Assembly: GCF_964213995.1 (NCBI RefSeq)
Contig: NC_135811.1
Location: 3,472,001 to 3,536,000 of the forward strand
Reading direction: 5' to 3'
From: Mustelus asterias
Lineage: Eukaryota
DNA: 64,000 nt
The notes under the pieces were generated by a model that was not told the DNA's origin, ran no database searches, and worked only from the letters and a program-made list of their open reading frames with translations. The translations under genes were made by a program, and so were the position numbers. This document shows positions 4,022 to 41,775 of this stretch, in pieces. How positions within the stretch are numbered: the first letter of the stretch is position 1; every line of letters starts with the position of its first letter.

Positions 4022-4126
4022 TCACTGTGTTTTACAGTCCACATCTCCACCCCCCGTCAGCTTCACTGTCTTCAGCTCCTGCACCATCTCCTGTTCCAGC
4101 TGCAAGATTTCGGTTGGCTTTTTATA
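4022..4126 (-). CDS. DPCD: DPCD coding exon 6 (last)
   Basis: cag|YKKPTEILQLEQEMVQELKTVKLTGGGDVDCKTQ*; ends DCKTQ as in human. Confidence 0.95.
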   Translation of the reverse strand, partial: YKKPTEILQLEQEMVQELKTVKLTGGGDVDCKTQ

Positions 4127-9397: not shown

Positions 9398-9610
<213 letters not shown>

Positions 9611-13215: not shown

Positions 13216-13416
<201 letters not shown>

Positions 13417-13573: not shown

Positions 13574-13698
13574 ATTGCTGCTACTTTCCTGTATCAGCTG
13601 CTGCTCCAGGTTCCCAACCGCTCCAGAAAATGTTTCACCCATTTCAATCTGCCACTGTCCCTGGGATCCCAGTTGACTTTTCTGCCTCCATTTCCTGA
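13574..13698 (-). CDS. DPCD: DPCD coding exon 3
   Basis: tag|TC, (V)RKWRQKSQLGSQGQWQIEMGETFSGAVGNLEQQLIQESSSN, |gtaagt; 125 nt. Confidence 0.95.
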
Positions 13699-16851: not shown

Positions 16852-16932
16852 CTATGAGTTGGTCATTGGAGACTTCATATTCTTCTACCATTTCACTGCC
16901 ATCTAGAAATAAATAATGTACTTTCCTCTTAC
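16852..16932 (-). CDS. DPCD: DPCD coding exon 2
   Basis: aag|GT..., KRKVHYLFLDGSEMVEEYEVSNDQLI, G|gtaagg; 81 nt, phase 1-1. Confidence 0.95.
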
Positions 16933-17460
16933 CTTGTTGGGGGAAGAAGAGAGATACAGTCAGAGCCATGTTAGGAGTTAGAATTACCACCAACAGGCCA
17001 CACACTGCAAAATTACACAGGTTTTGTAAATCAGTATTACAGAATATAAACATTGAACCTTACTGAGTGCCTGCCAACTCCAACCTTGGCACTAACAATC
17101 TCCCACCACATAAGAACATAAACAATGGGAGCAGGTGGAGGCTATTCGGCCCTTTGAGCCCATTTTGTCAGTCAGAGACCCTGGCTAATCCCCCACTTCA
17201 TTTTCCTGCACTATCCTCATCAGCCCTAGTGTTTCTAGATGTAGAAATCTCAGCTTTGAACATATTCAACACCCAAGGCCTCACAGCCAGTCCGTCCCGC
17301 ACCTGTAACAAGATAAGAAATGGTTGGTTTCCAGCCGAGAACCTGTATCCACTCTCTCTCTATTACACTCACATTACCCCCACCCCGTCCCTGTTTAAAC
17401 ACTCCGCGTCTCTCAGCCCCAAACCCGGCTGGAAGCTCTCCTTCAGCCCCAGCCCCAGCC

Positions 17461-17660
17461 CCCCGGGGCCTCGGCCTCACCCTCCTGCCCCGGGGCCCCG
17501 GCCTCACCCTCTTGCCCCGGCCTCACCCTCCTGCCCCGGGGCCCCGGCCTCACCCTCCTGCCCCGGCCTCACCCTCCTGCCCCGGGGCCCCGGCCTCACC
17601 CTCCTGCCCCGGGGCCCCGGCCTCACCCTCCTGCCCCGGGGCCCCGGCCTCACCCTCCTG
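17461..17660 (-). repeat. 27/19-bp GC-rich tandem repeat (8 units) spanning the DPCD exon 1 donor
   Basis: Unit CCCCGGGGCCCCGGCCTCACCCTCCTG; six 27-bp and two 19-bp units. Confidence 0.95.
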
Positions 17661-17717
17661 CAGCACCGCTGTTTTCTTCGCCCCCCGCAGACTCTCCAGC
17701 CAACTCTGCGCCGCCAT
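17654..17717 (-). CDS. DPCD: DPCD coding exon 1
   Basis: ATG at 17717; MAAQSWLESLRGAKKTAVLQE(G) resembles human [22 protein letters not shown]; donor G|gtgagg. The six exons sum to 612 nt = 203 aa + stop. Confidence 0.95.
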
Positions 17718-17990
17718 CTTGCGGTACCTGCCCGGTCTCCATGGCAACCGCGGCTCCGCCCATCGACCCTGTGACCCACGCGGCCTCAGTCACGTGGCTG
17801 CACTGATTTAGTCAAAGTTTTAACGGAAACCGAATTCCTGCCTTTGTGCCGATAATTATAAACATCACAAACATTATAAACATAGTAAACATTATAAACA
17901 TTATAATAAAATTATCATTGATTTTGTTCACCGATTGTCCGAGGAAACCGGAAGTGCTGTGTGTGTTTCCGGTGCGGTGGGTAAGTGGTC
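17700..17990. promoter_or_regulatory. DPCD/POLL bidirectional promoter in a CpG-rich island
   Basis: Head-to-head genes. Motifs: YY1-like CCGCCATCTT 17711-17720; RFX X-box GTCTCCATGGCAAC 17735-17748; E-box GTCACGTGG 17789-17797; five forkhead-type RYAAACA 17858-17900; ETS CCGGAAGTG 17948-17956 and TTCCGG 17967-17972. Confidence 0.8.
17945..17980 (+). other. POLL: Probable POLL non-coding exon 1 (5' start uncertain)
   Basis: Consensus donor TGG|gtaagt at 17980/17981 just downstream of the ETS sites. The first coding exon has its own acceptor (cag|21021) upstream of the ATG. Confidence 0.6.
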
Positions 17991-19433
17991 AGATATTTAC
18001 CCCCAGCGGGAGGCCATTCAGCCCGTCCCTCCTGTGAGGGGCAAGGCCGCAGTGCCCGGGGACCGCAGGCTGCTTTCCCCGCCGAGGGTCCTCACCCCTC
18101 AGGCCAGGGGCGAGGTGGAGGAATCGCGGGGCCTTCATGATTAACCCCAGCCGGGGACGGGAATCGAAGCTGGAGTCGCTCCGCATCACTGACCAGCCGG
18201 CCGAGCTAAACTGACAGCAGTCCTCGGTGCCGGCTGTCCCAATGAGCCCTCACCGCCACTAAAACTTTTTAATATTTATTTATTAGTGTCACAAGTACAT
18301 TAACACTGCAATGAAGTTGCTGTGAAAATCCCATTAGCGCTCTGTCAGGCAGCCAATTCCCAGCCCCACTCCCTGGGAAAGATTTTCCTCATGCCACTTT
18401 TACCAGTTATTTTTAAACCTCTGTCCACTCGCTCTCCATCCTTTCGCAGGACCTCCCCTCTCTGGCTGGACCCCTCCTGGTTTTTGAACACTTTTTGATC
18501 AGATCTCCTCTCAGCCTTGTATTTTTTTCTGAGGAAAACATTCCTAATTTCTGTCAGTTATCTCAGTAACTAAAGTTCCTCATTCCTTGAACAATTTTCA
18601 TGAATCTTTCCTCCTTTTATAGATTAATTAGAGGATTCTCTTCAATAGGATTTGAGTGGGATGTGGGGTCCTGATTGGCTACTTCTCAATGGGGTTTGAC
18701 CTGTTAATAGAAGATCATTTGTGTGTGTAAAAGTGTTTTTTCACATTAAGCACAATTTAATTGTGTTTGTTCCTAGCACCTAACAATAGGAATAAATACC
18801 CTCCAGGGCAGAAAGATTAGAAATGCTTACATAAAGCTCACTGGTCAGTATCTTGCGGATGTGTTTATGAATTTTAACCAATGCATCCTCCCCATTATTT
18901 CCCCAGTGGAAATCAAGGTATTTGCTTTTTCCACCCCCTAGCTCTACATAGAAGTTCATTAACAGTTGGATGAAAATCAGATAACTACGTACAAGAGTGA
19001 TTAAAACTTTGTTTATAAATTCTCAAATAAAAATAAAGTGTGGGAAATACCCACTGACTCACAGTTGACACCTAAAGTGGATAAATATATGAAAATGTTT
19101 CAGCAAAGTTAATTCCAATTGCTGATGAGCCTGAAGCCACAACCCAAAGTGGGTCAGCTTTGACAAAGGGATGTCTGGACTCTCAACATCAGCTCTTTTC
19201 TCTGCTTTTTGGTTTCAGATTCCAGCATCCACAGTAATTTGCTTTTATCCAGGGTACTAATACTTCCAGTCTTATTCAGGAAGCTATGGGAGACGGATGT
19301 TATGGGAAGTGACAAAGATATACTGGTGTATTAGATTTTTTTTAGATTGGGGCTGAGTAGAGTTAGTTTTATTCTGTATCGAATCGTACTGTAGATCATC
19401 TGAGTGTGTTTGATGCTGACACTGGGCCTCACA

Positions 19434-19845
19434 CGGAGGTTGAGGGGAGACATGATAGAGGTCTACAAAATTATGAGAGACATAGGGTGGATAGTCAGAG
19501 GCTTTTTCCCAGGTTGGAAGTGTCAATTACAAGAGTGGAAGTGTCAATTACAAAGGGGGCACAGGTTCAAGGTGAGAGGGGGAAAGTTTAAGGGAGATTT
19601 GCGGGGGAAGTTTTTCACACAGAATGGTGGGTGTCTGGAACGCGCTGCCAGAGGAGGTGGTGGAAGCAGGCACATTAGCAACATTTAAGAGGCATCTGGA
19701 TCGGTACATGAATAGGGAGGGAATAGAGGGATATGGACCGAGTAAGGGCAGAAGATTTTTTTTTTAGTTTAGTTAGGGCATCATGATCGGCACAGGCTTG
19801 GAGGGCTGAAGGGCCTGTTCCTGTGCTGTACTTTTCTTTGTTCTT
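19434..19845 (+). mobile_element. CR1 3' fragment
   Basis: RRLRGDMIEVYKIM...RGHRFKVRG; tail CCTGTGCTGTACTTTTCTTTGTTCT. Confidence 0.85.
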
Positions 19846-20174
19846 AAGGGAAGTATTCTGTAGCCCAATATTAACATAATTCATAATGAACACCAAAACC
19901 ACACACAAAAGATTAACAGTCACTGCTCCCAGTAACCTGGTGAATGAATCAGTCCAGGAGAAAGGGGGAAGACATCCATGAATTTTGACTCCTGTTTTTG
20001 TGATTCCTGCTGAAAAGTGCATGTGTGTACTCATCTACAATCATCAGATTAAAACACTCTAGCAATCCAGATTGTTTTAAAAAGCTGGCTCTGTATGCTT
20101 TTGAGAAATGTAGACATAAGGGAGGCCTGACGATGGTCTATAAAATAATAATAGGTTCCATGTTATTTCAGTTA

Positions 20175-20485
20175 ATAGAATCCCCACAGTGCAGAAGAAG
20201 GCCCTCCGGCTCATCGAGTCTGCACCAACAATAATACCCACCCCAGGCCCTATCTCCACAACCCCACACATTTACCCTGCTAACCTCCACATCACAGGAC
20301 ACTATGGGTAATTTAGCATGGCCAATCAATCTAACCCGCACATCTTTGGACTGTGGGAGGAAACCCACGCAGACGCGGGGAGAAAGTGCAAACTCCGCAC
20401 AGACAGTGACCCAAGGCGAGAATCGAACCCAGGTGCCTGGAGCTGTGAGGCAGTAGTGCTAACCACTGTGCCACCGTGCCACCCC
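20175..20485 (-). mobile_element. HE1-like V-SINE
   Basis: Reverse-complement copy with an internal deletion. Confidence 0.85.
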
Positions 20486-21064
20486 AGTTAGTTAGGTTGC
20501 AGAGGGCCAAAGGTCAATCTTGTAAGTTACCCGCAAGTAGAATGTTGTAACATGTTAAATGGTTCATTTCTCAGAGAATAATGAGACCAATGGAAGAGGT
20601 TGCTGGCTCATGTGGTGAATTCTGATTCGCTCAGTACAATCAAATGTGATCCAGAGATCAAGTCATACAACAGGTGGATACCAACTAAAATAATCCTGGC
20701 CAGTGTGGTCTCCTGCTCTAGTTTTGATTGCCTTAGGAAATTGAGAAAGGAATTTTCCAGATTTCCTTTTACTGGAATTCATCTTACATTTTAATACTGT
20801 TTTAAACCGCCCCTGGTAGGTTGCATTATTCTGGCGAGTAGGAATAGTCTTAGTCATGAAGCATTATGAAGTTATACTAAACCAATAATCATGGATTAGG
20901 TCTCAGTCTGATTCTGGAGACCACATTTTAGAATGGATGCAAAAAGATGAGAAAATGGAGGTGATCATGGAGCATTTGAGTATTTGTACAGTGATCTTAA
21001 AATCTCAATTGTTGGAACAGGTCGATTCCCAGTTTAGCCAGACTCTGAGTCAGTCGTGCAATGT

Positions 21065-21179
21065 ATGGAGCCTCGGGGGATTGTAAAGGCATTTCGGAAG
21101 GTGAAACGAGTGCAGGATGTCCCACCAGCAACCGCCGGAGTGACTGTGAAGAAAGCAAAGCCGAATGAAGTCAGTAAAG
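21065..21179 (+). CDS. POLL: DNA polymerase lambda coding exon 1
   Basis: MEPRGIVKAFRKVKR resembles human MDPRGILKAFPKRQK; phase-1 donor G|gtagaa fits the next exon. An alternative phase-1 donor at 21173 cannot be excluded. Confidence 0.88.
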
Positions 21180-21597
21180 GTAGAAAACGTTGTGACATTA
21201 ACCCTTGTAGTGCGGATGTTGGAACAGACAGAAACTAAACAGAATCAAGAAGTGAATAATGAAAGAAGGATGTGTATTTAGACTATCTGGTCATTATTGC
21301 ATTGCTATTGGAGGTTGCTATGCATAATTGGCTGCTGTGTTTCCTACATAAGAATGTCATTACACTTCAAAAGCAATACAATCTGTAAGACATGTTGATG
21401 CTTCCCGAGACCAGGAAAGGCACTATCCGAATCCAAGTCTTTATTTATTTACCATCTTAATATTTCTTTTGGAAATGTGTCAAGGCTCAATGTAAACCAA
21501 GTTGGCAAACACAGCAGCAATTTTCAGCAAAGAAAGATCCATCTAGAAGGACAAGGGCAGCAGGCGCAGGTGAACACCACCACCTACACGTTTGTAG

Positions 21598-21970
21598 CTG
21601 CCCCCCCCCCCCAACCCCACCTCCATGCCCCCCCAGCTCCAAACCCTCCCACTCCCTGCTCCCCACCCCCAGCTCTGAACACCCCCAACCCCAGCTCCCA
21701 GCCCCCCCAACCCCAGCTACATCCCTGCCCAACCCCAGCTCCCTGCCCCCCAACCCCAGCTCTCTGCCCCCCCAACCCCAGCTACATCCCTGCCCAACCC
21801 TAGCTCCCTGCCCCCCAACCCCAGCTACATCCCTGCCCAACCCCAGCTCCCTGCCCCCCAACCCCAGTTCCCTGCCCACCCAACCCCAGCTCCCTGCCCC
21901 CCAACCCAAGTTCCCTGCCCCCCCCAACATCCTGATTCATAGATCAGCGCCCCCTCCCCCAAACCCAGCT
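21598..21970 (+). repeat. C-rich approx. 21-bp imperfect minisatellite
   Basis: (CCCCCCAACCCCAGCTCCCTG)n with variants. Confidence 0.9.
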
Positions 21971-22044
21971 CTGTGCCTCCTGCCATCCTCAGTTTTATCT
22001 CCTCATACAAAACAACATCAAGAACGAATGGTTGCAGCTCCTGT

Positions 22045-22824
22045 CAATGATCAGAACACACTCCACCACACGGCAATGATCGGGACACACTCCACCACAC
22101 GGCAATGATCCGGACACACTCCACCACACAGCAATGATCCGGACACACTCCACCACACGGCAATGATCGGGACACACTCCACCACACGGCAATGATCGGG
22201 ACACACTCCACCACACGGCAATGATCAGAACACACTCCACCACACGGCAATGATCGGGACACACTCCACCACACGGCAATGATCAGAACACACTCCACCA
22301 CACGGCAATGATCGGGACACACTCCACCACACGGCAATGATCGGGACACACTCCACCACACAGCAATGATCGGGACACACTCCACCACACGGCAATGATC
22401 AGAACACACTCCACCACACGGCAATGATCAGAACACACTCCACCACACGGTAATGATCGGGACACACTCCACCACACGGCAATGATCGGGACACACTCCA
22501 CCACACGGCAATGATCGGGACACACTCCACCACACGGCAATGATCGGGACACACTCCACCACACGGCAATGATCGGGACACACTCCACCACACGGCAATG
22601 ATCGGGACACACTCCACCACACGGCAATGATCGGGACACACTCCACCACACGGCAATGATCGGGACACACTCCACCACACGGCAATGATCGGGACACACT
22701 CCACCACACGGCAATGATCGGGACACACTCCACCACACAGCAATGATCGGGACACACTCCACCACACGGCAATGATCGGGACACACTCCACCACACGGCA
22801 ATGATCAGAACACACTCCACCACA
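22045..22824 (+). repeat. 29-bp minisatellite, about 27 copies
   Basis: (CAATGATCGGGACACACTCCACCACACGG)n with TCAGA/TCCGG variants. Confidence 0.97.
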
Positions 22825-22897
22825 TGTCAATGGTCCGGTCATGTTCCGCCATATGGCAGTTGACGTTAGCTGATCTTTCTTTATCTCATTTTGACAG

Positions 22898-23397
22898 AAG
22901 CCTGGCTGAGTGGATTGACAGTGTACATTGTCCAAGCAGGGATTGGTAAGGCTCGGACAGAAATCTTTCAGGAGCAGGTCGTACAGAATGGTGGGGAGGT
23001 CAGCCTTGCTTTCTCCCCTGCCGTTACCCACGTGATCATCGATGATGGGATGGATTGTGAGCGTGCCTTTCGCCTCCTGAAGCTGGAGGTGCTGCCCCCC
23101 AGTGTCCAGCTGGTGCGATCGACGTGGCTCAGTTTGTGCATCACAGAGAGGAGAATTCTGAGCACTGCGGGTTACAGCGTCTTCATCCCAGACAGATACC
23201 TGCCGCCTGAACAGTGCGCCAAGATTCAAGTATCAGCTGGTGAGGGTCAGCAAGGGAACACAGAGATCAGCTGTCAATCGGGGACACATACAAAGGCCCC
23301 GTTGAACTGTACAGAGGCAATAAAAACGATTACTGAGCTGCCAAAAGAGACCACACCGGAGGAAAAGAGTGAAACAGTACAAGCCACGACAGCACAG
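22898..23397 (+). CDS. POLL: DNA polymerase lambda coding exon 2 (BRCT domain and linker)
   Basis: cag|AA; WLSGLTVYIVQAGIGKARTEIFQEQVVQNGG...VTHVIIDDGMD...WLSLCITERR; CAG|gtacag. Confidence 0.95.
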
Positions 23398-24054
23398 GTA
23401 CAGTAACGCTCACTTGTCCCACCCTCTTCTCGAACCCCTTTGGCTCTTCAATTCTCCTCGATCTCTGCAACCCTTCAATTCTGCTCTCTTATCCAGCCCC
23501 AATTTTAATCTTCACACCATTGGCAGACATGCCTTCAGCTGCCTGGGTGCCAAGATCCGGAATTTCCTCCCAAAATCTCTCCACCTCTCCATCTCTTTCC
23601 TTTCCTTTAAGATGCTCCTTAAACCTCTCTCTTTGACCAAGCTTTTGGCCTCCTCCTGTTTAGACAGTGCCTCCTCTTGCCCCGCTGTGGCCAGTTATTG
23701 GAGCACAGTTACTGCTCTGCAGTGATCATTTATTTCACCCACTGTCATCGGGAGGTGGGGATCAGGTCGGGTTGCGTTGGATCAGGGTCACCCTGGAGAA
23801 GCAGAGATATGGGGAGCCACTGTCTGCAGTCTCTCTGATCTTTAGAAGAGGCTAAAAGTGTGCCCAGTGGCACTCAAGCATTGCATTGATCCGATGCTCT
23901 TGATAAGATTCTACATGAAGTCCTGATAATGACCTGTCTTGGGTGGGAATGCAGGTTGCCCATTCTAAGCCGCTTTTAAACAAAACACCTGCCTACTGTC
24001 CCCTTTGTCTACGTCAGTGAGGCATAAGGGGGTGAAAATGTCCCTCGTGTGGTA

Positions 24055-25090
24055 CACGGCGTTAGCTGTGCCTCAGTGGATAACACCTCGGCTCTTGAGT
24101 CAGAACCATCGATTTGAGTCCCATTCCAGAAATCTGATCACTTTGACACTTCCATTGCAGTACTGAGGGAACACAACAACATTGGACAGCAATACTGAGG
24201 GAATGCTGCACTCAGAGGGTCAGTACTGAGGGAGTGCCGCACTGTCAGAGGGTCAGTACAGAGGGAGTGCCGCACTGTCAGAGGGTCAGTACTGAGGGAG
24301 TGCTGCACTGTCAGAGGGTCAGTACTGAGGGAGTGTGGCACTGTCAGAGGGTCAGTACTGAGGGAGTGTGGCACTGTCAGAGAGTCAGTACTGAGGGAGT
24401 GCCGCACTGTCAGAGGGTCAGTACTGAGGGAGTGCTGCACTGTCAGAGGGACAGTACTGGGGGAGTGCTGCACTTTCAGAGGGTCAGTGCTGAGGGAGTG
24501 CTGCACTGTCAGAGGGACAGTACTGAGGGAGTGCTGCACTGTCAGAGGGTCAGTACTGAGGGAGTGCTGCACTGTCAGAGGGACAGTACTGAGGGAATGC
24601 TGCATTGTCAGAGGGGCAGTACTGACGGAGTGCTGCACTGTCAGAGGATCAGTACTGAGGGAGTGCCGCACTGTCAGAGGGTCAGTACCGAGGGAGTGCC
24701 GCACTGTCAGAGGAGCAGTATTGAGTAAGTGCTGCACTGCATTGTCAGAGAGGTAGTACTGAGGGAGTGTTATGTTTGATCTGAGACATTAAACTAAGGC
24801 CGCATATGTCCTGTTCAGTGGATATGAAAGATCCCATTGCCACTGTTTAGAAGAAGAGTGGACAACTTCTCGGGATGCTGAGCACTTTTTATCAACAAAC
24901 ATCACTAAAACAGATTCCTTGGTCAAGGTGGTTTTGCTGTTTGTGCGATCTTGCTGCAGGGGCAAATTGGCTTCTGTATTTCCTACATCTCAACACTTCC
25001 TGTACTTTTAAACATACTTCATTTAACGGTGAAGCATTTTTGATTGTCCTAATGTTGTGAAAGGTGCTATAGAAATACAAGTCTTTCTTA
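24055..25090 (+). mobile_element. DeuSINE (SacSINE1-like) with an internal minisatellite
   Basis: tRNA-like head at about 24060-24130, Deu domain GAAAGATCCCATTGCCACTG..AGAAGAAGAG at 24825-24860, tail GGTGCTATAGAAATACAAGTC. Confidence 0.72.
24188..24770 (+). repeat. 33-bp minisatellite, about 17 copies
   Basis: (CAGTACTGAGGGAGTGCTGCACTGTCAGAGGGT)n. Confidence 0.95.
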
Positions 25091-25203
25091 CACATTTACA
25101 AACGGAACCTGTGAGGAGTGTTGGGAGAAGGCTGTGACTAAATGTGGTGTGTTGATGGAATATTCACTCCTTTCACTGACTGTTCTCCGTCGTGTCTCCC
25201 TAG

Positions 25204-25512
25204 TTGTCTGAAGATGAAGGTGGAAATGGTGCTGAAGATGATGGAGTCTCCGAACAAGACCTGCAAGCGCTGATCACTGGGGACAGCCATTCTCCCAGTC
25301 TGTCTCGTCCACGTGAGCCCACCATCAGTGGCAAGTGGGTGTGTGCCCAATCATCTGACAGTAAAAAGCAAAACTACAACAAAGCCATCACAGACAAGCT
25401 GGAGATGCTGGCGGCTGCATATACACATCAAGGTGACAAGTGGAGAGCGCTGGGATATGCCAAGGCCATTAACGCCTTGAAAAGTTACCAGAAGCCAGTG
25501 TCTTCCTTTCAG
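25204..25512 (+). CDS. POLL: DNA polymerase lambda coding exon 3 (start of 8-kDa lyase domain)
   Basis: tag|LSEDEG...KWVCAQSS...[27 protein letters not shown]|gtaaaa. Confidence 0.96.
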
Positions 25513-26449
25513 GTAAAATCTCTGCCTTTTCCTTCCTCTTCCCTTCCCAAGTGGAGGAGCCTCCATTTGCAGTGCACACTGAGGGTAGGTCTAACCTGAC
25601 CTTCCCTACCCACCAGGAAATTGACAGCATCCAGTGTTTTGCACTTTTCCAGATTTTACCCTCCATTGATCTCATGTGAAAATGAGTTGAATTGTCCCGG
25701 ATTTGCTTTTTGACTGATTCCCTCTTGGTGCTAGTGTCCGCCTCAACCCCTGGCCTCTGGCATTGCCCAAGGGTCAAAGTGCCATGCCCAGGGGGCATCT
25801 TGGCACTGCCTGCCAGGCATTGGGCAGTGCCAAGGATGGGGCCTAATGGGGGGGGTAGGGTCTCTGTGGGGGAGGTCGGTGGGGGGGTGGGGAGTAGGTC
25901 GATGCTGGCCCGGACATGTAAGCCAGCGATCAAACGGGCCAGCGATCAGGAGGCCAGCGATCAGGAGGCCAGCGATCAGGAGGCCAGCAGTGTGGGGCTA
26001 CTGCCCATGCACCGATCCCGGCACTAGCAGATTGGCGTATGCGCAGTGGCCCACTCAGCACTGTGTTGCCGGCCTCTCCAGCAGGAGTTGGCCCTGCCCC
26101 TGCATTTTTACGAGATTTAAGCTAGGGCTCTCTGCAGTGCACAGAGTGTGGGAGATTCATTTCGAAACTCCTGCTGAAAAAAACCAGCGTGATTTACTCC
26201 AGTTTTTACACAAAATTGACGCTTAGAATTTTTTTGAAAGACCTCTATATTCCATGCACCCCCTATATTCTGCACACTCCCCTTTTCTTCTCTCCTATGT
26301 ACTCTATGTACGGTATGCTTTGTCTGTATAGCGCACAAGAAACAATACTTTTCACTGTATACCAATGCATGTGACAATAATAAATCAAATCAAATCAAAA
26401 AACATCCACATGTGACCTTGATGTAACAAAATTCAGAACACACATGGAT

Positions 26450-27570
26450 GGAAAATGTTAAGAGCGAGCATCGCTGGGGGTGTATGTATATAAATCATTA
26501 AATCATTGCAAGGCAGGTCGAGAAAGTATACGGGATCCTGGTTTTATTAATAGGGGCATAAAGTAAGCAAGCAAGGAAGTTTTGATAAATTTGTCAGCCT
26601 CAGCGGGGTATTGTGTCCAGTTCTGGACACCACACTTGTGAAAGTATTAAAGAAGGCTCAGAAAAGATTCACGAGATGGTCCTTCAGTTACATGGACAGA
26701 TTGGAAAAGCTGGGACTCTTTTTCCTGGATAAGTGAAGGTTTAAAGAAATTTAATAGAGGTGTTCAAAATTATGAGGGGTCTGGACAGAGTGGACAGGGA
26801 GAAACTGTTCCCATTGGTGGAAGGGTGGAGAAGCAGAGCGTGTCAACTTGAGGGGAATGAAGCAACTGTATCATGAGGAGAAACCTTTATACGCAGCAAG
26901 TAGTTAGGATCTGGAATGCACTGTCTGAGAGTGTGGTGGAGACAGATTCACACAGTGAGTGGTTAGGATGTGGAATGTACTGTCCGAGAGTGTGGTGGAG
27001 ACAGATTCACACAGTGAGTGGTTAGGATGTGGAATGTACTGTCCGAGAGTGTGGTGGAGACAGATTCACACAGTGAGTGGTTAGGATCTGGAATGTACTG
27101 TCCGAGAGTGTGGTGGAGACAGATTCACACAGTGAGTGGTTAGGATCTGGAATGCACTGTCTGAGAGTGTGATGGAGACAGATTCACGCAGTGAGTGGTT
27201 AGGATCTGGAATGCACTGTCTGAGAGTGTGATGGAGACAGATTCACGCAGTGAGTGGTTAGGATCGGGAATGTACTGTCTGAGAGTGTGATGGAGACAGA
27301 TTCACACAGCGAGTGGTTAGGATCTGGAATGCACTGTCTGAGAGTGTGATGGAGACAGATTCACGCAGTGAGTGGTTAGGATCTGGAATGTACTGTCTGA
27401 GAGTGGTGGAGGCAAGTTTTCAAAAGGGAATTTGATAATTATCTGAAGAGGAAAGATTTGCAGGGCTACAGGGAAAAGACAGGGGAGTGGCACTAGGTGA
27501 ATTACTCTTGCAGAGAGCCAGTACGGGCATAATGGGCTGAATGGCTTCCTGTGCTGTAACTATTCTGTAA
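26450..27570 (+). mobile_element. CR1 3' fragment containing a 59-bp tandem expansion
   Basis: CR1 ORF2 C-terminal sequence continues on both sides of the array. Confidence 0.8.
26900..27410 (+). repeat. 59-bp tandem repeat, about 8.6 copies
   Basis: GACAGATTCA recurs at 26941, 27000, 27059 and onward. Confidence 0.95.
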
Positions 27571-39576: not shown

Positions 39577-40353
39577 GAATCCAGTGTCGGGGCGGAGGGG
39601 GTGAGCTGGAATCCAGTGTCGGGGCGGAGGGGGTGAGCTGGAATCCAGTGTCGGGGCGGAGGGGGTGAGCTGGAATCCAGTGTCGGGGCGGAGGGGGTGA
39701 GCTGGAATCCAGTGTCGGGGCGGAGGGGGTGAGCTGGAATCCAGTGTCGGGGCGGAGGGGGTGAGCTGGAATCCAGTGTCGGGGCGGAGGGGGTGAGCTG
39801 GAATCCAGTGTCGGGGCGGAGGGGGTGAGCTGGAATCCAGTATCGGGGCGAAGGGGATGAGCTGGAATCCAGTGTCGGGGCGAAGGGGATGAGCTGGAAT
39901 CCAGTATCGGGGCGGAGGGGGAGAGCTGGAATCCAGTGTTGGGGTGGAAGGGGAAAGGAGGTGAGCTGGAATCCAGTGTCAGGGCAGAGGGGGTGAGCTG
40001 GAATCCAGTATCGGGGAGGAGGAGGAGGAGAGCTGGAATCCAGTGTCGGGGCGGAGGGGGTGAGCTGGAATCCAGTGTCAGGGCAGAGGGGGAGAGCTGG
40101 AATCTAGTGTCGGGGCGGAGGGGGGAGCTGGAATCCAGTACCGGGGAGGAGGGGGAGAGCTGGGATCCAGTGTCGGGCGGAGGGGGTGAGCTGGAATCCA
40201 GTGTCGGGGCGGGGGAGAGCTGGAATTCAGTGTCGGGGCGGGGGAAGAGCTGGAATTCAGTGTCGGGGCGGGGGAAGAGCTGGAATTCAGTGTCGGGGCG
40301 GGGGGAGAGCTGGAATCCAGTGTCGGGCGGAGGGAGAGAGCTGCAATCCAGTG
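39577..40353 (+). repeat. 32-bp G-rich minisatellite, about 24 copies
   Basis: (GAGCTGGAATCCAGTGTCGGGGCGGAGGGGGT)n, degenerating toward the 3' end. Confidence 0.96.
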
Positions 40354-40387
40354 CTGGTCGTTATCAGTCATTTTACCTGTGTTTCAG

Positions 40388-40556
40388 GTGAGAGACATGG
40401 CTCACTCCATTAATCCAGCCCTGGTTGCTCTGGCTTGTGGTTCCTATCGACGTGGGAAGCCCACCTGTGGGGATGTAGACATTCTGATCACACATCCAGA
40501 TGGAAAATCGCACAGAGGTGTTTTCAGTAAGATCCTGGCTGGGCTGAGGGACACAG
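40388..40556 (+). CDS. POLL: DNA polymerase lambda coding exon 6 (palm)
   Basis: cag|[39 protein letters not shown]...; Pol X motif GSYRRG..GDVD with two catalytic Asp; G|gtgagt. Confidence 0.97.
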
Positions 40557-40942
40557 GTGAGTGTGAACAAGCAATGTGGCAATGGGCACGGTACAGGCTT
40601 ATCAGCACAGGTATCTCAGTATGCTGCACTGGAGGGGTCGTTCACAGCACCCTCAGCACGATCACGGGGGAGCAGCGCTCTCACCGTTCTTCGAGGGTTC
40701 AGGGATGATTCCTCCTCCAGATACTCCAACGCTTCATCCAGCCAAACACTTCAGTAATGAGCTCATCTTGGGTGAGATGGCAACCCAAGGCACCATCTCT
40801 CACCTCAGGTGGACATGAATGATGGACAGCTACTTTCTCAGATCCAGGGAAGTTATATTTGGCGCCCTGACCAATATTTACCCAACCAACATCACTGAAA
40901 CATGTTATCTGATCATTTATCAAATTAGTGCTTGTGGGAAAT

Positions 40943-41670
40943 TGTAGAGGGAGCTTTACTCTGTATCTAACCCCGTGCTGTATGTCCTGGGACTGTTTGA
41001 TGGGGACAGTATAGAGAGAGCTTTACTCTACATCTAACTCTGTGCTGTACCTGTCCTGGAAGTGTTTGATGGAGGACAGTGTAGAGAGAGCTTTACTCTG
41101 TATCTAACCCCGTGCTGTACCTGTCCTGGGAGTGTTTGATGGGGACAGTGTAGAGGAAGTTTAACTCTGTATCTAACCCCGTGCTGTACCTGTCCTGGGA
41201 GTGTTTGATGGGGACAGTGTAGAGAGAGCTTTACTCTGTATCTAACCCCGTGCTGTACCTGTCCTGGGAGTGTTTGATGGGGACAGTGTAGAGGAAGTTT
41301 AACTCTGTATCTAACCCCGTGCTGTACCTGTCCTGGGAGTGTTTGATGGGGACAGTATAGAGAGAGCTTTACTCTGTATCTAACCCCGTGCTGTACCTGT
41401 CCTAGGAGTGTTTGATGGGGACAGTGTAGAGGAAGTTTAACTCTGTTTCTAACCCCGTGCTGTACCTGTCCTGGAAGTGTTTGATGGAGGACAGTGTAGA
41501 GAGAGCTTTACTCTGTATCTAACCCCGTGCTGTACCTGTCCTGGGAGTGTTTGATGGGAACAGTATGGAGGGAGCTTTACTTTGTATCTAACCTCGTGCT
41601 GTACCTGTCCTGGGAGTGTTTGATGGGGACAGTGTAGAGGGAGCTGTACCCTGTATCTAACCCGTGCTGT
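40943..41670 (+). repeat. 69-70-bp tandem repeat, about 10 copies; dispersed family
   Basis: (CTTTACTCTGTATCTAACCCCGTGCTGTACCTGTCCTGGGAGTGTTTGATGGGGACAGTGTAGAGAGAG)n; also at about 15595-15760 (+) and 2405-2467 (-). Confidence 0.96.
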
Positions 41671-41775
41671 AGCTGACTCCAGACTGAGCCGTGTAGATTT
41701 GCAGAGAGATTTTGCAGTTTCTTGAGCACAGGATATTTTCTATTTGAAGTTTGATCTTGAATTTTCTGTTGAAAG

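What the first reader, a model, noticed from the sequence alone, without database searches (positions are those of the whole stretch)
17461..17660. Tandem repeat multiplies the DPCD exon-1 splice donor eight times and reads in frame as Gly-X-Y
Seen: the unit straddles the exon/intron junction, so each copy regenerates (C)AGGAGG|GTGAGG, with GT at 17653, 17626, 17599, 17572, 17553, 17526, 17507 and 17480. The first four donors are 27 nt apart and in frame. Using them would add 0, 9, 18 or 27 residues of (GEAGAPGQE)n, a collagen-like triplet pattern. Donors past the first 19-bp unit are frameshifted or lie beyond a stop at 17550, so they would be NMD-prone. Established: among identical competing 5' splice sites, the one nearest the acceptor is often favoured. 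Inference: repeat copy number could tune DPCD isoforms and dosage, or show de novo birth of a collagen-like insert.
Basis: partly seen in the sequence, partly recalled or inferred. Interest (0 to 1): 0.72.

Follow-up and report, generated by a model that had tools for sequence, protein, structure and literature searches.

The report
Splice-donor minisatellite in shark DPCD intron
A short repeat has copied the end of the first exon of a shark cilia gene (DPCD), splice signal included, seven more times into the next intron; it varies between alleles and is missing in a close relative, and the cell most likely still uses the first signal, as in several human genes with the same known arrangement.

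Summary
Observation confirmed: eight identical AGG|GTGAGG donors at the stated places, and donors 2-4 would add 9, 18 or 27 Gly-X-Y residues. The array is real in reads. One DNA contig of a relative about 7% diverged lacks it. In 3 of 3 DNA-like runs the first unit is 19 bp, not the assembly's 27 bp, so on that allele donor 2 gives a stop at codon 29 rather than an insert. This is a known kind of repeat (human F7, CBS, IFI6; amphioxus 'mirages'). Donor 1 gives the NCBI protein model exactly; no insert isoform was found, and 118 of 118 homologs keep the same length here. Donor choice in this species is not shown by reads. The one RNA-like run gave a contig running unspliced from intron 1 into exon 2, so some retention stays open. 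The Gly-X-Y pattern arises in 2.5-21% of shuffles. The scan noted this kind before on other DNA, including twice in this genome.

The parts
17654..17717 (-). DPCD exon 1, coding part (ATG at 17717, 64 nt, phase 1)
   Evidence: with exons 2-6 it gives P0001 exactly
17652..17653 (-). Authentic donor (donor 1), GT of AGG|GTGAGG
   Evidence: the same junction is joined in RNA-like contigs of two relatives, X14 and X10
17461..17660 (-). Minisatellite, 83% G+C: five 27-bp units, two 19-bp units (the 27-mer less 8 bp) and a partial last unit; each unit holds the exon's last bases and the intron's first bases
17479..17626 (-). Seven reiterated donors, G of GT at 17626, 17599, 17572 (in frame in the assembly allele) and 17553, 17526, 17507, 17480 (early stop)
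17550..17552 (-). First in-frame stop (TGA, codon 56) on read-through from exon 1
17627..17653 (-). First unit: 27 bp in the assembly, 19 bp in the flank-anchored contigs of X1, X2 and X4
   Evidence: (8 letters left out at 17633)
17444..17460 (-). Short G-rich hexamer run behind the array, with a 6-bp indel between alleles
   Evidence: X2 lacks 6 letters at 17444; X1 of the same sample matches the assembly
16933..17653 (-). DPCD intron 1 (721 nt); 16933-17456 is covered by an RNA-like contig continuous with exon 2
16852..16932 (-). DPCD exon 2 (81 nt); Met36 ATG at 16891 starts NCBI isoform X2 (168 aa)
13574..13698 (-). DPCD exon 3
13217..13350 (-). DPCD exon 4
9482..9584 (-). DPCD exon 5
4022..4126 (-). 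DPCD exon 6, coding part with stop

Best explanation
This is a polymorphic minisatellite that repeats the DPCD exon-1 splice donor eight times, and splicing most likely uses the first donor almost alone, giving normal 203-residue DPCD. Shown: the array, its eight identical donors, a second first-unit type in reads, and its absence from one contig of a close relative. Inferred: it arose recently by slippage or unequal exchange in the G+C-rich start of intron 1, with 8-bp deletions giving the 19-bp units. Inferred from human F7: the donor that is transcribed first and lies nearest the cap is committed first, so the seven copies behave as silent pseudo-donors. Any leak is probably limited to donors 2-3, giving a small in-frame insert on the 27-first allele and a premature stop on the 19-first allele. 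The Gly-X-Y reading is probably a by-product of a G-rich unit, not a selected collagen-like insert.
For: Donor 1 gives P0001 (NCBI X1) letter for letter. The two NCBI isoforms found for this gene, X1 and X2, carry no insert, and each cluster has one member. A search with exon 1 plus the repeat frame returned 1 protein among 7996 candidates scored, P0001 itself without insert. Of 120 listed homologs, 118 have both anchors and all 118 have 22 residues from W6 to H27; 0 of 129 fetched DPCD proteins carry a four-triplet Gly-X-Y run in the first 80 residues or the repeat word. F7 minigenes: only the most upstream site was used, with 1-12 copies and with stronger downstream sites up to consensus value 91. 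Amphioxus mirages do not disturb splicing and differ between haplotypes. Relative B has 17 other letters in place of 198 (X5, one contig, depth 7.4, at least 255 letters each side), while five 27-bp units here are exact copies, which fits a young array. Gly-X-Y by chance: 2.5% (fixed register), 7% (donor context fixed), 21% (any register) of 200,000 shuffles.
Against: No read of this organism shows which donor is used. The two RNA-like contigs joined at donor 1 come from relative B, which lacks the array, and from relative C, whose intron was not seen. The RNA support behind NCBI model X1 could not be seen. The RNA-like run X3 of this organism has a contig that runs unspliced through 524 nt of intron 1 into exon 2 and on into exon 3. 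NCBI X2 starts at Met36, which fits use of an out-of-frame donor. IFI6 and CBS do use two extra donors. F7 exon 7 is an internal mammalian exon tested in minigenes; this is a shark first exon. Predicted structure does not single out donor 1: unpaired probability 0.17, 0.18, 0.10, 0.18, 0.05, 0.19, 0.05, 0.05 for donors 1-8. Gain in this lineage versus loss in B has no outgroup test.
Confidence: 0.68

Rival explanations
1. The array lowers DPCD output. Eight U1 sites and many G-runs would slow removal of intron 1 or leak to out-of-frame donors, the products would stop early (codon 56 or 29) and be degraded, and the effect would depend on the allele.
For: X3 contig 16 (1295 nt, depth 82, no differing letters) crosses the intron 1/exon 2 border unspliced while exon 2 is joined to exon 3. 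RNA-like contigs of relatives B and C join across the intron. NCBI X2 (168 aa, from Met36) is not what simple retention would give, since the intron offers an in-frame ATG at 17053 and a 222-aa frame; it fits an out-of-frame donor or another first exon. The CBS VNTR is titled as associated with lower CBS activity (reference title only).
Against: One run per species, with tissue and library unknown; contig depth cannot give a retention level, and a contig is not a single transcript. A 168-aa Met36 isoform is also modelled in basking shark (P0125), and other sharks and rays have altered DPCD N-termini (P0107, P0122), so variable 5' ends are not peculiar to this array. Copy number had no effect in F7. 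Retention of short G+C-rich first introns is common (my knowledge).
Confidence: 0.17
2. Donors 2-4 are used at a noticeable level, as in IFI6, so DPCD is made as a ladder of isoforms with +9, +18 or +27 residues. The insert would fall in the turn of the first beta-hairpin. The first reader's stronger version adds a collagen-like function.
For: The frames are open and the donors identical. IFI6 and CBS use two downstream repeat donors. The site, E21-G22, is a two-residue turn between strands 14-20 and 23-29 in the model (pLDDT about 90), and the main RUVBL2 contacts are reported elsewhere in the protein (PMC13663681 passages), so an insert might be tolerated.
Against: No insert isoform among the proteins found; no length change in 118 of 118 homologs. 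The 19-first allele puts donor 2 out of frame. Three to nine triplets with one proline per three, in a cytosolic protein, are unlikely to form a stable triple helix (established knowledge, not computed). The pattern appears in 2.5-21% of shuffles.
Confidence: 0.11
3. The array, or the 27-27-27 start that makes the in-frame ladder, is an assembly error.
For: 3 of 3 DNA-like runs show a 19-bp first unit that the assembly lacks, and no listed contig spans the array.
Against: Depth of the collapsed contig matches the assembly's multiplicity, and both ends of the array are anchored in reads. X1 and X2 come from one sample yet differ at 17444, 17755 and 17778, so the sample is heterozygous on both flanks, and a second haplotype explains the 19-bp first unit. 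An error confined to the first unit remains possible (about 1 in 5, my estimate).
Confidence: 0.04

Closest known systems
Human F7 intron 7 37-bp VNTR (Borensztajn et al. 2006, PMC1557585; parts 1-5 of 6 read: abstract to the start of the references)
   Same: First unit spans the exon/intron border; donors of identical sequence follow (5-9 there, 8 here); G-rich units; polymorphic.
   Different: F7 exon 7 is internal and its unit is mostly out of frame. Here it is a coding first exon, with two unit lengths and three consecutive in-frame copies. Donor use was tested there, not here.
Human IFI6 (6-16) intron 2 minisatellite (seen only as summarised in PMC1557585 introduction and a passage of PMC4526556; the original, PMC306954, is not held)
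   Different: 25 pseudo-sites there; use of the extra donors is documented there and not seen here.
Human CBS intron 13 31-bp VNTR (PMC1557585 introduction; passages of PMC2630376; Lievers 2001 and Yang 2000 seen as reference titles only)
   Same: Donor-spanning VNTR with alleles that differ in number and in unit sequence; two extra donors used.
   Different: 16-21 units, internal exon; a link to enzyme activity is claimed there, and nothing of the kind is tested here.
Amphioxus 'mirage' minisatellites in Adh3 and globin genes (passages of PMC3087553)
   Same: Tandem copies of an exon-intron border, haplotypes of different structure, regular splicing reported as undisturbed.
   Different: Units of 10-160 bp, often on the acceptor side; invertebrate chordate.

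Membership tests
Donor-reiterating minisatellite (F7/CBS/IFI6/LMNB2/PDGFA type; 'mirage') | Head-to-tail repeat whose first unit spans an exon/intron border | tested here: met
Donor-reiterating minisatellite | The donor sequence is repeated intact in the intron | tested here: met
   8 of 8 share AGG|GTGAGG
Donor-reiterating minisatellite | Polymorphic in length or unit order | tested here: met
   First unit 19 bp in X1, X2 and X4 against 27 bp in the assembly; a local assembly error is not fully excluded, and total copy number per allele is not resolved
Donor-reiterating minisatellite, silent subtype (F7, LMNB2, PDGFA) | Only the most upstream donor is used | tested here: inconclusive
   NCBI model X1 uses donor 1; no read of this organism shows a junction
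Donor-reiterating minisatellite, leaky subtype (IFI6, CBS) | The next one or two donors are also used | tested here: inconclusive
   No insert isoform among proteins found; contigs drop rare forms
Collagen-like triple-helical domain | Gly at every third residue | tested here: met
   GEA-GAP-GQE per unit, at most nine triplets
Collagen-like triple-helical domain | The sequence is translated as part of a protein | tested here: inconclusive
   Not found; one search scored only 7996 candidates
Collagen-like triple-helical domain | Long enough and stabilised (imino acids, hydroxylation or a trimerisation domain) to form a triple helix | not tested
   From established knowledge unlikely at 3-9 triplets with one Pro per three; no computation run
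Splicing-associated tandem repeat (spl-TR; PMC10078293, passages read) | Repeat length or allele is associated with a splicing change across individuals | not testable with these tools
   No paired genotype and raw RNA data available

The most novel reading that the evidence does not exclude
The order of units, not their number, acts as an allele-specific switch. One animal carries a 27-first and a 19-first haplotype, so a leak to donor 2 adds nine residues to DPCD from one allele and destroys the frame on the other, while the array as a whole holds back removal of intron 1. That would make a young shark minisatellite a dosage control on a ciliary RUVBL1/2 adaptor, and a natural in-vivo test of donor choice at a first exon.
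Probability: 0.12. Interest if true: 0.5.

Novelty: new member of a known kind. Interest (0 to 1): 0.2.

Why it matters
As the likeliest reading it is an ordinary, probably neutral example of a known repeat type and matters little. Its small extra value is as a test case: a close relative lacks the array, and two alleles predict opposite outcomes for donor 2, so allele-resolved RNA reads would test whether first-come donor choice, shown for human F7 minigenes, also holds at a shark first exon. A search for DPCD + shark + splice + tandem repeat found 0 papers in the held library; subscription journals are mostly not covered.

Tried and rejected
No RNA holder was listed on record; X3, X10 and X14 are called RNA-like only because their contigs join exons. 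X3 shows no cover of exon 1 or the array and no joint from any donor. This is not used as evidence, because Logan contigs are simplified graphs (passages of 10.1101/2024.07.30.605881), and the contig ends at 17456, where the two alleles of the 6-bp indel part. The lack of intron cover in X10 is likewise not used. X9 (second sample of B) does not bridge the site, so 1 of 2 B DNA runs is informative. Of 20 listed runs, 8 were laid; 12 were not.

RNA structure as the selector of donor 1: rejected. The region folds better than shuffles (z -2.77, 0 of 100), but the centroid leaves most of the array open and donor 1 is no more accessible than donors 2, 4 or 6. G-quadruplex: five pattern matches, none in the minimum-energy model. 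G-runs favouring the upstream donor: plausible from hnRNP F/H work (passages of PMC1326234), and G-runs in the would-be exon rise from 1 to 20 across the donors, but G triplets were not needed in F7, so this is left as a possible helper only.

A dispersed repeat family: rejected. Seven other loci with 72-76% similarity are different G+C-rich repeats, and 0 of 7 hold the unit or the donor core; 120 matches were listed and only these were examined. No solved structure matched by sequence. The catshark alternative N-terminus (P0122) matches the array only as low-complexity G/R sequence. No splice-strength score was computed (no model available), the insert isoforms were not folded, and no outgroup intron could be fetched. 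Two primary papers were not held. No look-alike stretch in other scanned genomes.

Full report
Observation. The minus strand carries DPCD exon 1 (ATG 17717) followed by a 200-bp, 83% G+C array. The G of GT stands at 17653, 17626, 17599, 17572, 17553, 17526, 17507 and 17480, spaced 27, 27, 27, 19, 27, 19, 27. All eight have the context AGG|GTGAGG. The 19-bp unit is the 27-bp unit less 8 bp. Joined to the acceptor at 16932, donors 1-4 add 0, 9, 18 or 27 residues of GEAGAPGQE, and donors 5-8 stop early. Read-through stops at codon 56, 17552-17550.

Gene and organism. Six exons joined at donor 1 give 203 residues identical to P0001, which NCBI names DPCD isoform X1 of Mustelus asterias, so the genome is very probably that shark's. 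Exon 1 with its flanks matches one place in G000. Seven other loci examined of 120 matches are unrelated G+C-rich repeats without the unit. DPCD binds RUVBL2 and is linked to dynein-arm assembly; its reported contacts lie in the linker holding NKKYYKKF and in a loop between later strands (PMC13663681, passages). In my model (mean pLDDT 81) the exon 1/2 junction, E21-G22, is the turn between strands 14-20 and 23-29.

Is the array real? Yes. In DNA-like runs X1 and X2 the flanks match and run into the array from both sides. A collapsed 49-nt contig has 3.9-4.5 times the flank depth, against 4.26 expected (rough). No contig spans it. These runs belong to one study and may be the source of the assembly, so they show that the array is in reads, not that it is in other animals.

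A second allele. The flank-anchored contigs of X1, X2 and X4 (3 of 3) lack 8 letters at 17633. The last 31-mer of the X1 and X2 contigs still holds the unique exon base at 17662, so the first unit is the 19-bp type; this word is absent from the window. X1 and X2 come from one sample but differ at 17444 (6-bp indel), 17755 and 17778, so the sample is heterozygous on both sides. A second haplotype is the simplest reading (inferred); an assembly error in the first unit is less likely but open. On the 19-first allele donors 2 and 3 are out of frame and stop at codon 29. The in-frame Gly-X-Y ladder is therefore a property of one allele at most.

A relative lacks it. One contig of organism B (X5, depth 7.4, at least 255 letters on each side) passes from 17643 to 17444 with 17 other letters in place of 198. 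B differs by about 7% in the flanks, while five 27-bp units here are exact copies. A recent gain in this lineage is the likely reading; no outgroup was available. The second B run (X9) does not bridge the site.

RNA. No run was on record as RNA; three behaved as RNA. X14 (organism B) joins exon 1 to exon 2 at donor 1, skipping 721 nt, at depth 372. X10 (organism C, 2 differences in 81 nt) has exon 2 sequence directly behind donor 1. Neither tests the array: B lacks it and C's intron was not seen. X3, from this organism, gave a 1295-nt contig with no differing letters that covers exon 2 and 524 nt of intron 1 unbroken and continues into exon 3. So unspliced intron 1/exon 2 sequence is present in RNA in which exon 2 is joined to exon 3. 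It may be retained intron, precursor, or transcripts starting in the intron; its level cannot be read from contigs. Donor choice in this species is not shown by any read.

Proteins. A search with exon 1 plus the repeat frame against longer proteins gave 1 hit among 7996 candidates scored, P0001 without insert (weak evidence). Of 804 homologs, the best 120 were listed; 118 have both anchors and all have 22 residues from W6 to H27. 0 of 129 fetched proteins carry the repeat word or four Gly-X-Y triplets near the N-terminus. The only other isoform found for this gene, X2, starts at Met36. Simple retention would offer an in-frame ATG at 17053 and a 222-aa frame, so X2 more likely reflects an out-of-frame donor or another first exon (inferred). 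A 168-aa isoform is also modelled in basking shark, so X2 need not come from the array.

Gly-X-Y. In 200,000 shuffles of the unit the pattern appears in 2.5% (same register), 7% (donor context fixed) and 21% (any register). That is uncommon but not remarkable in a scan of many repeats. Three to nine triplets in a cytosolic protein are unlikely to trimerise (my knowledge).

Mechanism. Human F7 has the same anatomy. Only the most upstream donor was used; the others worked only when those upstream were mutated; 1 to 12 copies made no difference; G triplets were not needed (PMC1557585). The same paper traces the 'proximal wins' rule to disputed two-site globin constructs. It lists IFI6 and CBS as using two extra donors and LMNB2 and PDGF as using only the first (IFI6). 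Amphioxus mirages behave alike (I took the name from scan note e1-8074563 and then read the passages). I found no structural reason here for another outcome: donor accessibility is similar for donors 1, 2, 4 and 6. I therefore commit to first-donor use with at most a small leak (0.68). Rivals are reduced output through retention or out-of-frame leak (0.17), a real in-frame ladder (0.11) and artefact (0.04). The step from mammalian minigenes of an internal exon to a shark first exon is inference.

Novelty. A new member of a known kind. The scan's index holds 26 notes with these words in at least 15 genomes, with two donor-type arrays in this genome, at TTC41 and an MHC class I gene; these are unchecked AI notes and are not counted as support. 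No paper in the held library joins DPCD, shark, splice and tandem repeat. No supplements were read. What is particular here is the allele pair with opposite predictions for donor 2, the array-free relative, and the unexplained intron-1 contig. These make a clean test but do not change the class. Interest 0.2.

Noticed in passing
window 17950-25513, + strand: A DNA polymerase lambda (POLL)-like gene lies head-to-head with DPCD across a CpG-rich stretch. The name and the same arrangement in human are recalled, not tested by a call.
   Followed up: no
window 16927-16934, - strand: Exon 2 begins with GTAAGA behind the acceptor AG, so the acceptor is also a good-looking donor; this could allow in-frame skipping of the 81-nt exon 2 by re-splicing.
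   Followed up: no
window about 16902, - strand: An internal acceptor in exon 2 would remove ten residues in frame; white shark and basking shark models P0126 and P0128 have this form.
   Followed up: partly
proteins P0122, P0123 (Scyliorhinus torazame): Catshark DPCD models have another first exon that encodes a roughly 10-residue repeat, joined to exon 2; possibly a parallel repeat near DPCD exon 1. It matches this window only as low-complexity sequence.
   Followed up: partly
window 17855-17906: A 9-bp A+T-rich repeat (5.8 copies) sits in the shared promoter region; organism B's contigs have gaps around there.
   Followed up: no
window 16930-17053, - strand: The 3' end of intron 1 is open in the DPCD frame for 41 codons with two ATGs (17053, 16969), so intron-containing RNA could encode a 222-aa DPCD with another N-terminus.
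   Followed up: partly
window 21608-27405 and 39577-41675: Several other minisatellites (periods 22, 29, 33, 59, 32, 69) lie in the window; their relation to exon borders was not checked.
   Followed up: no
L002 1488-1841; L004 893-2312: Other young G+C-rich arrays in the genome (24-bp and 26-bp units, 93-99% matches) share the GGCCCCGGGG core with this unit but not the donor.
   Followed up: no
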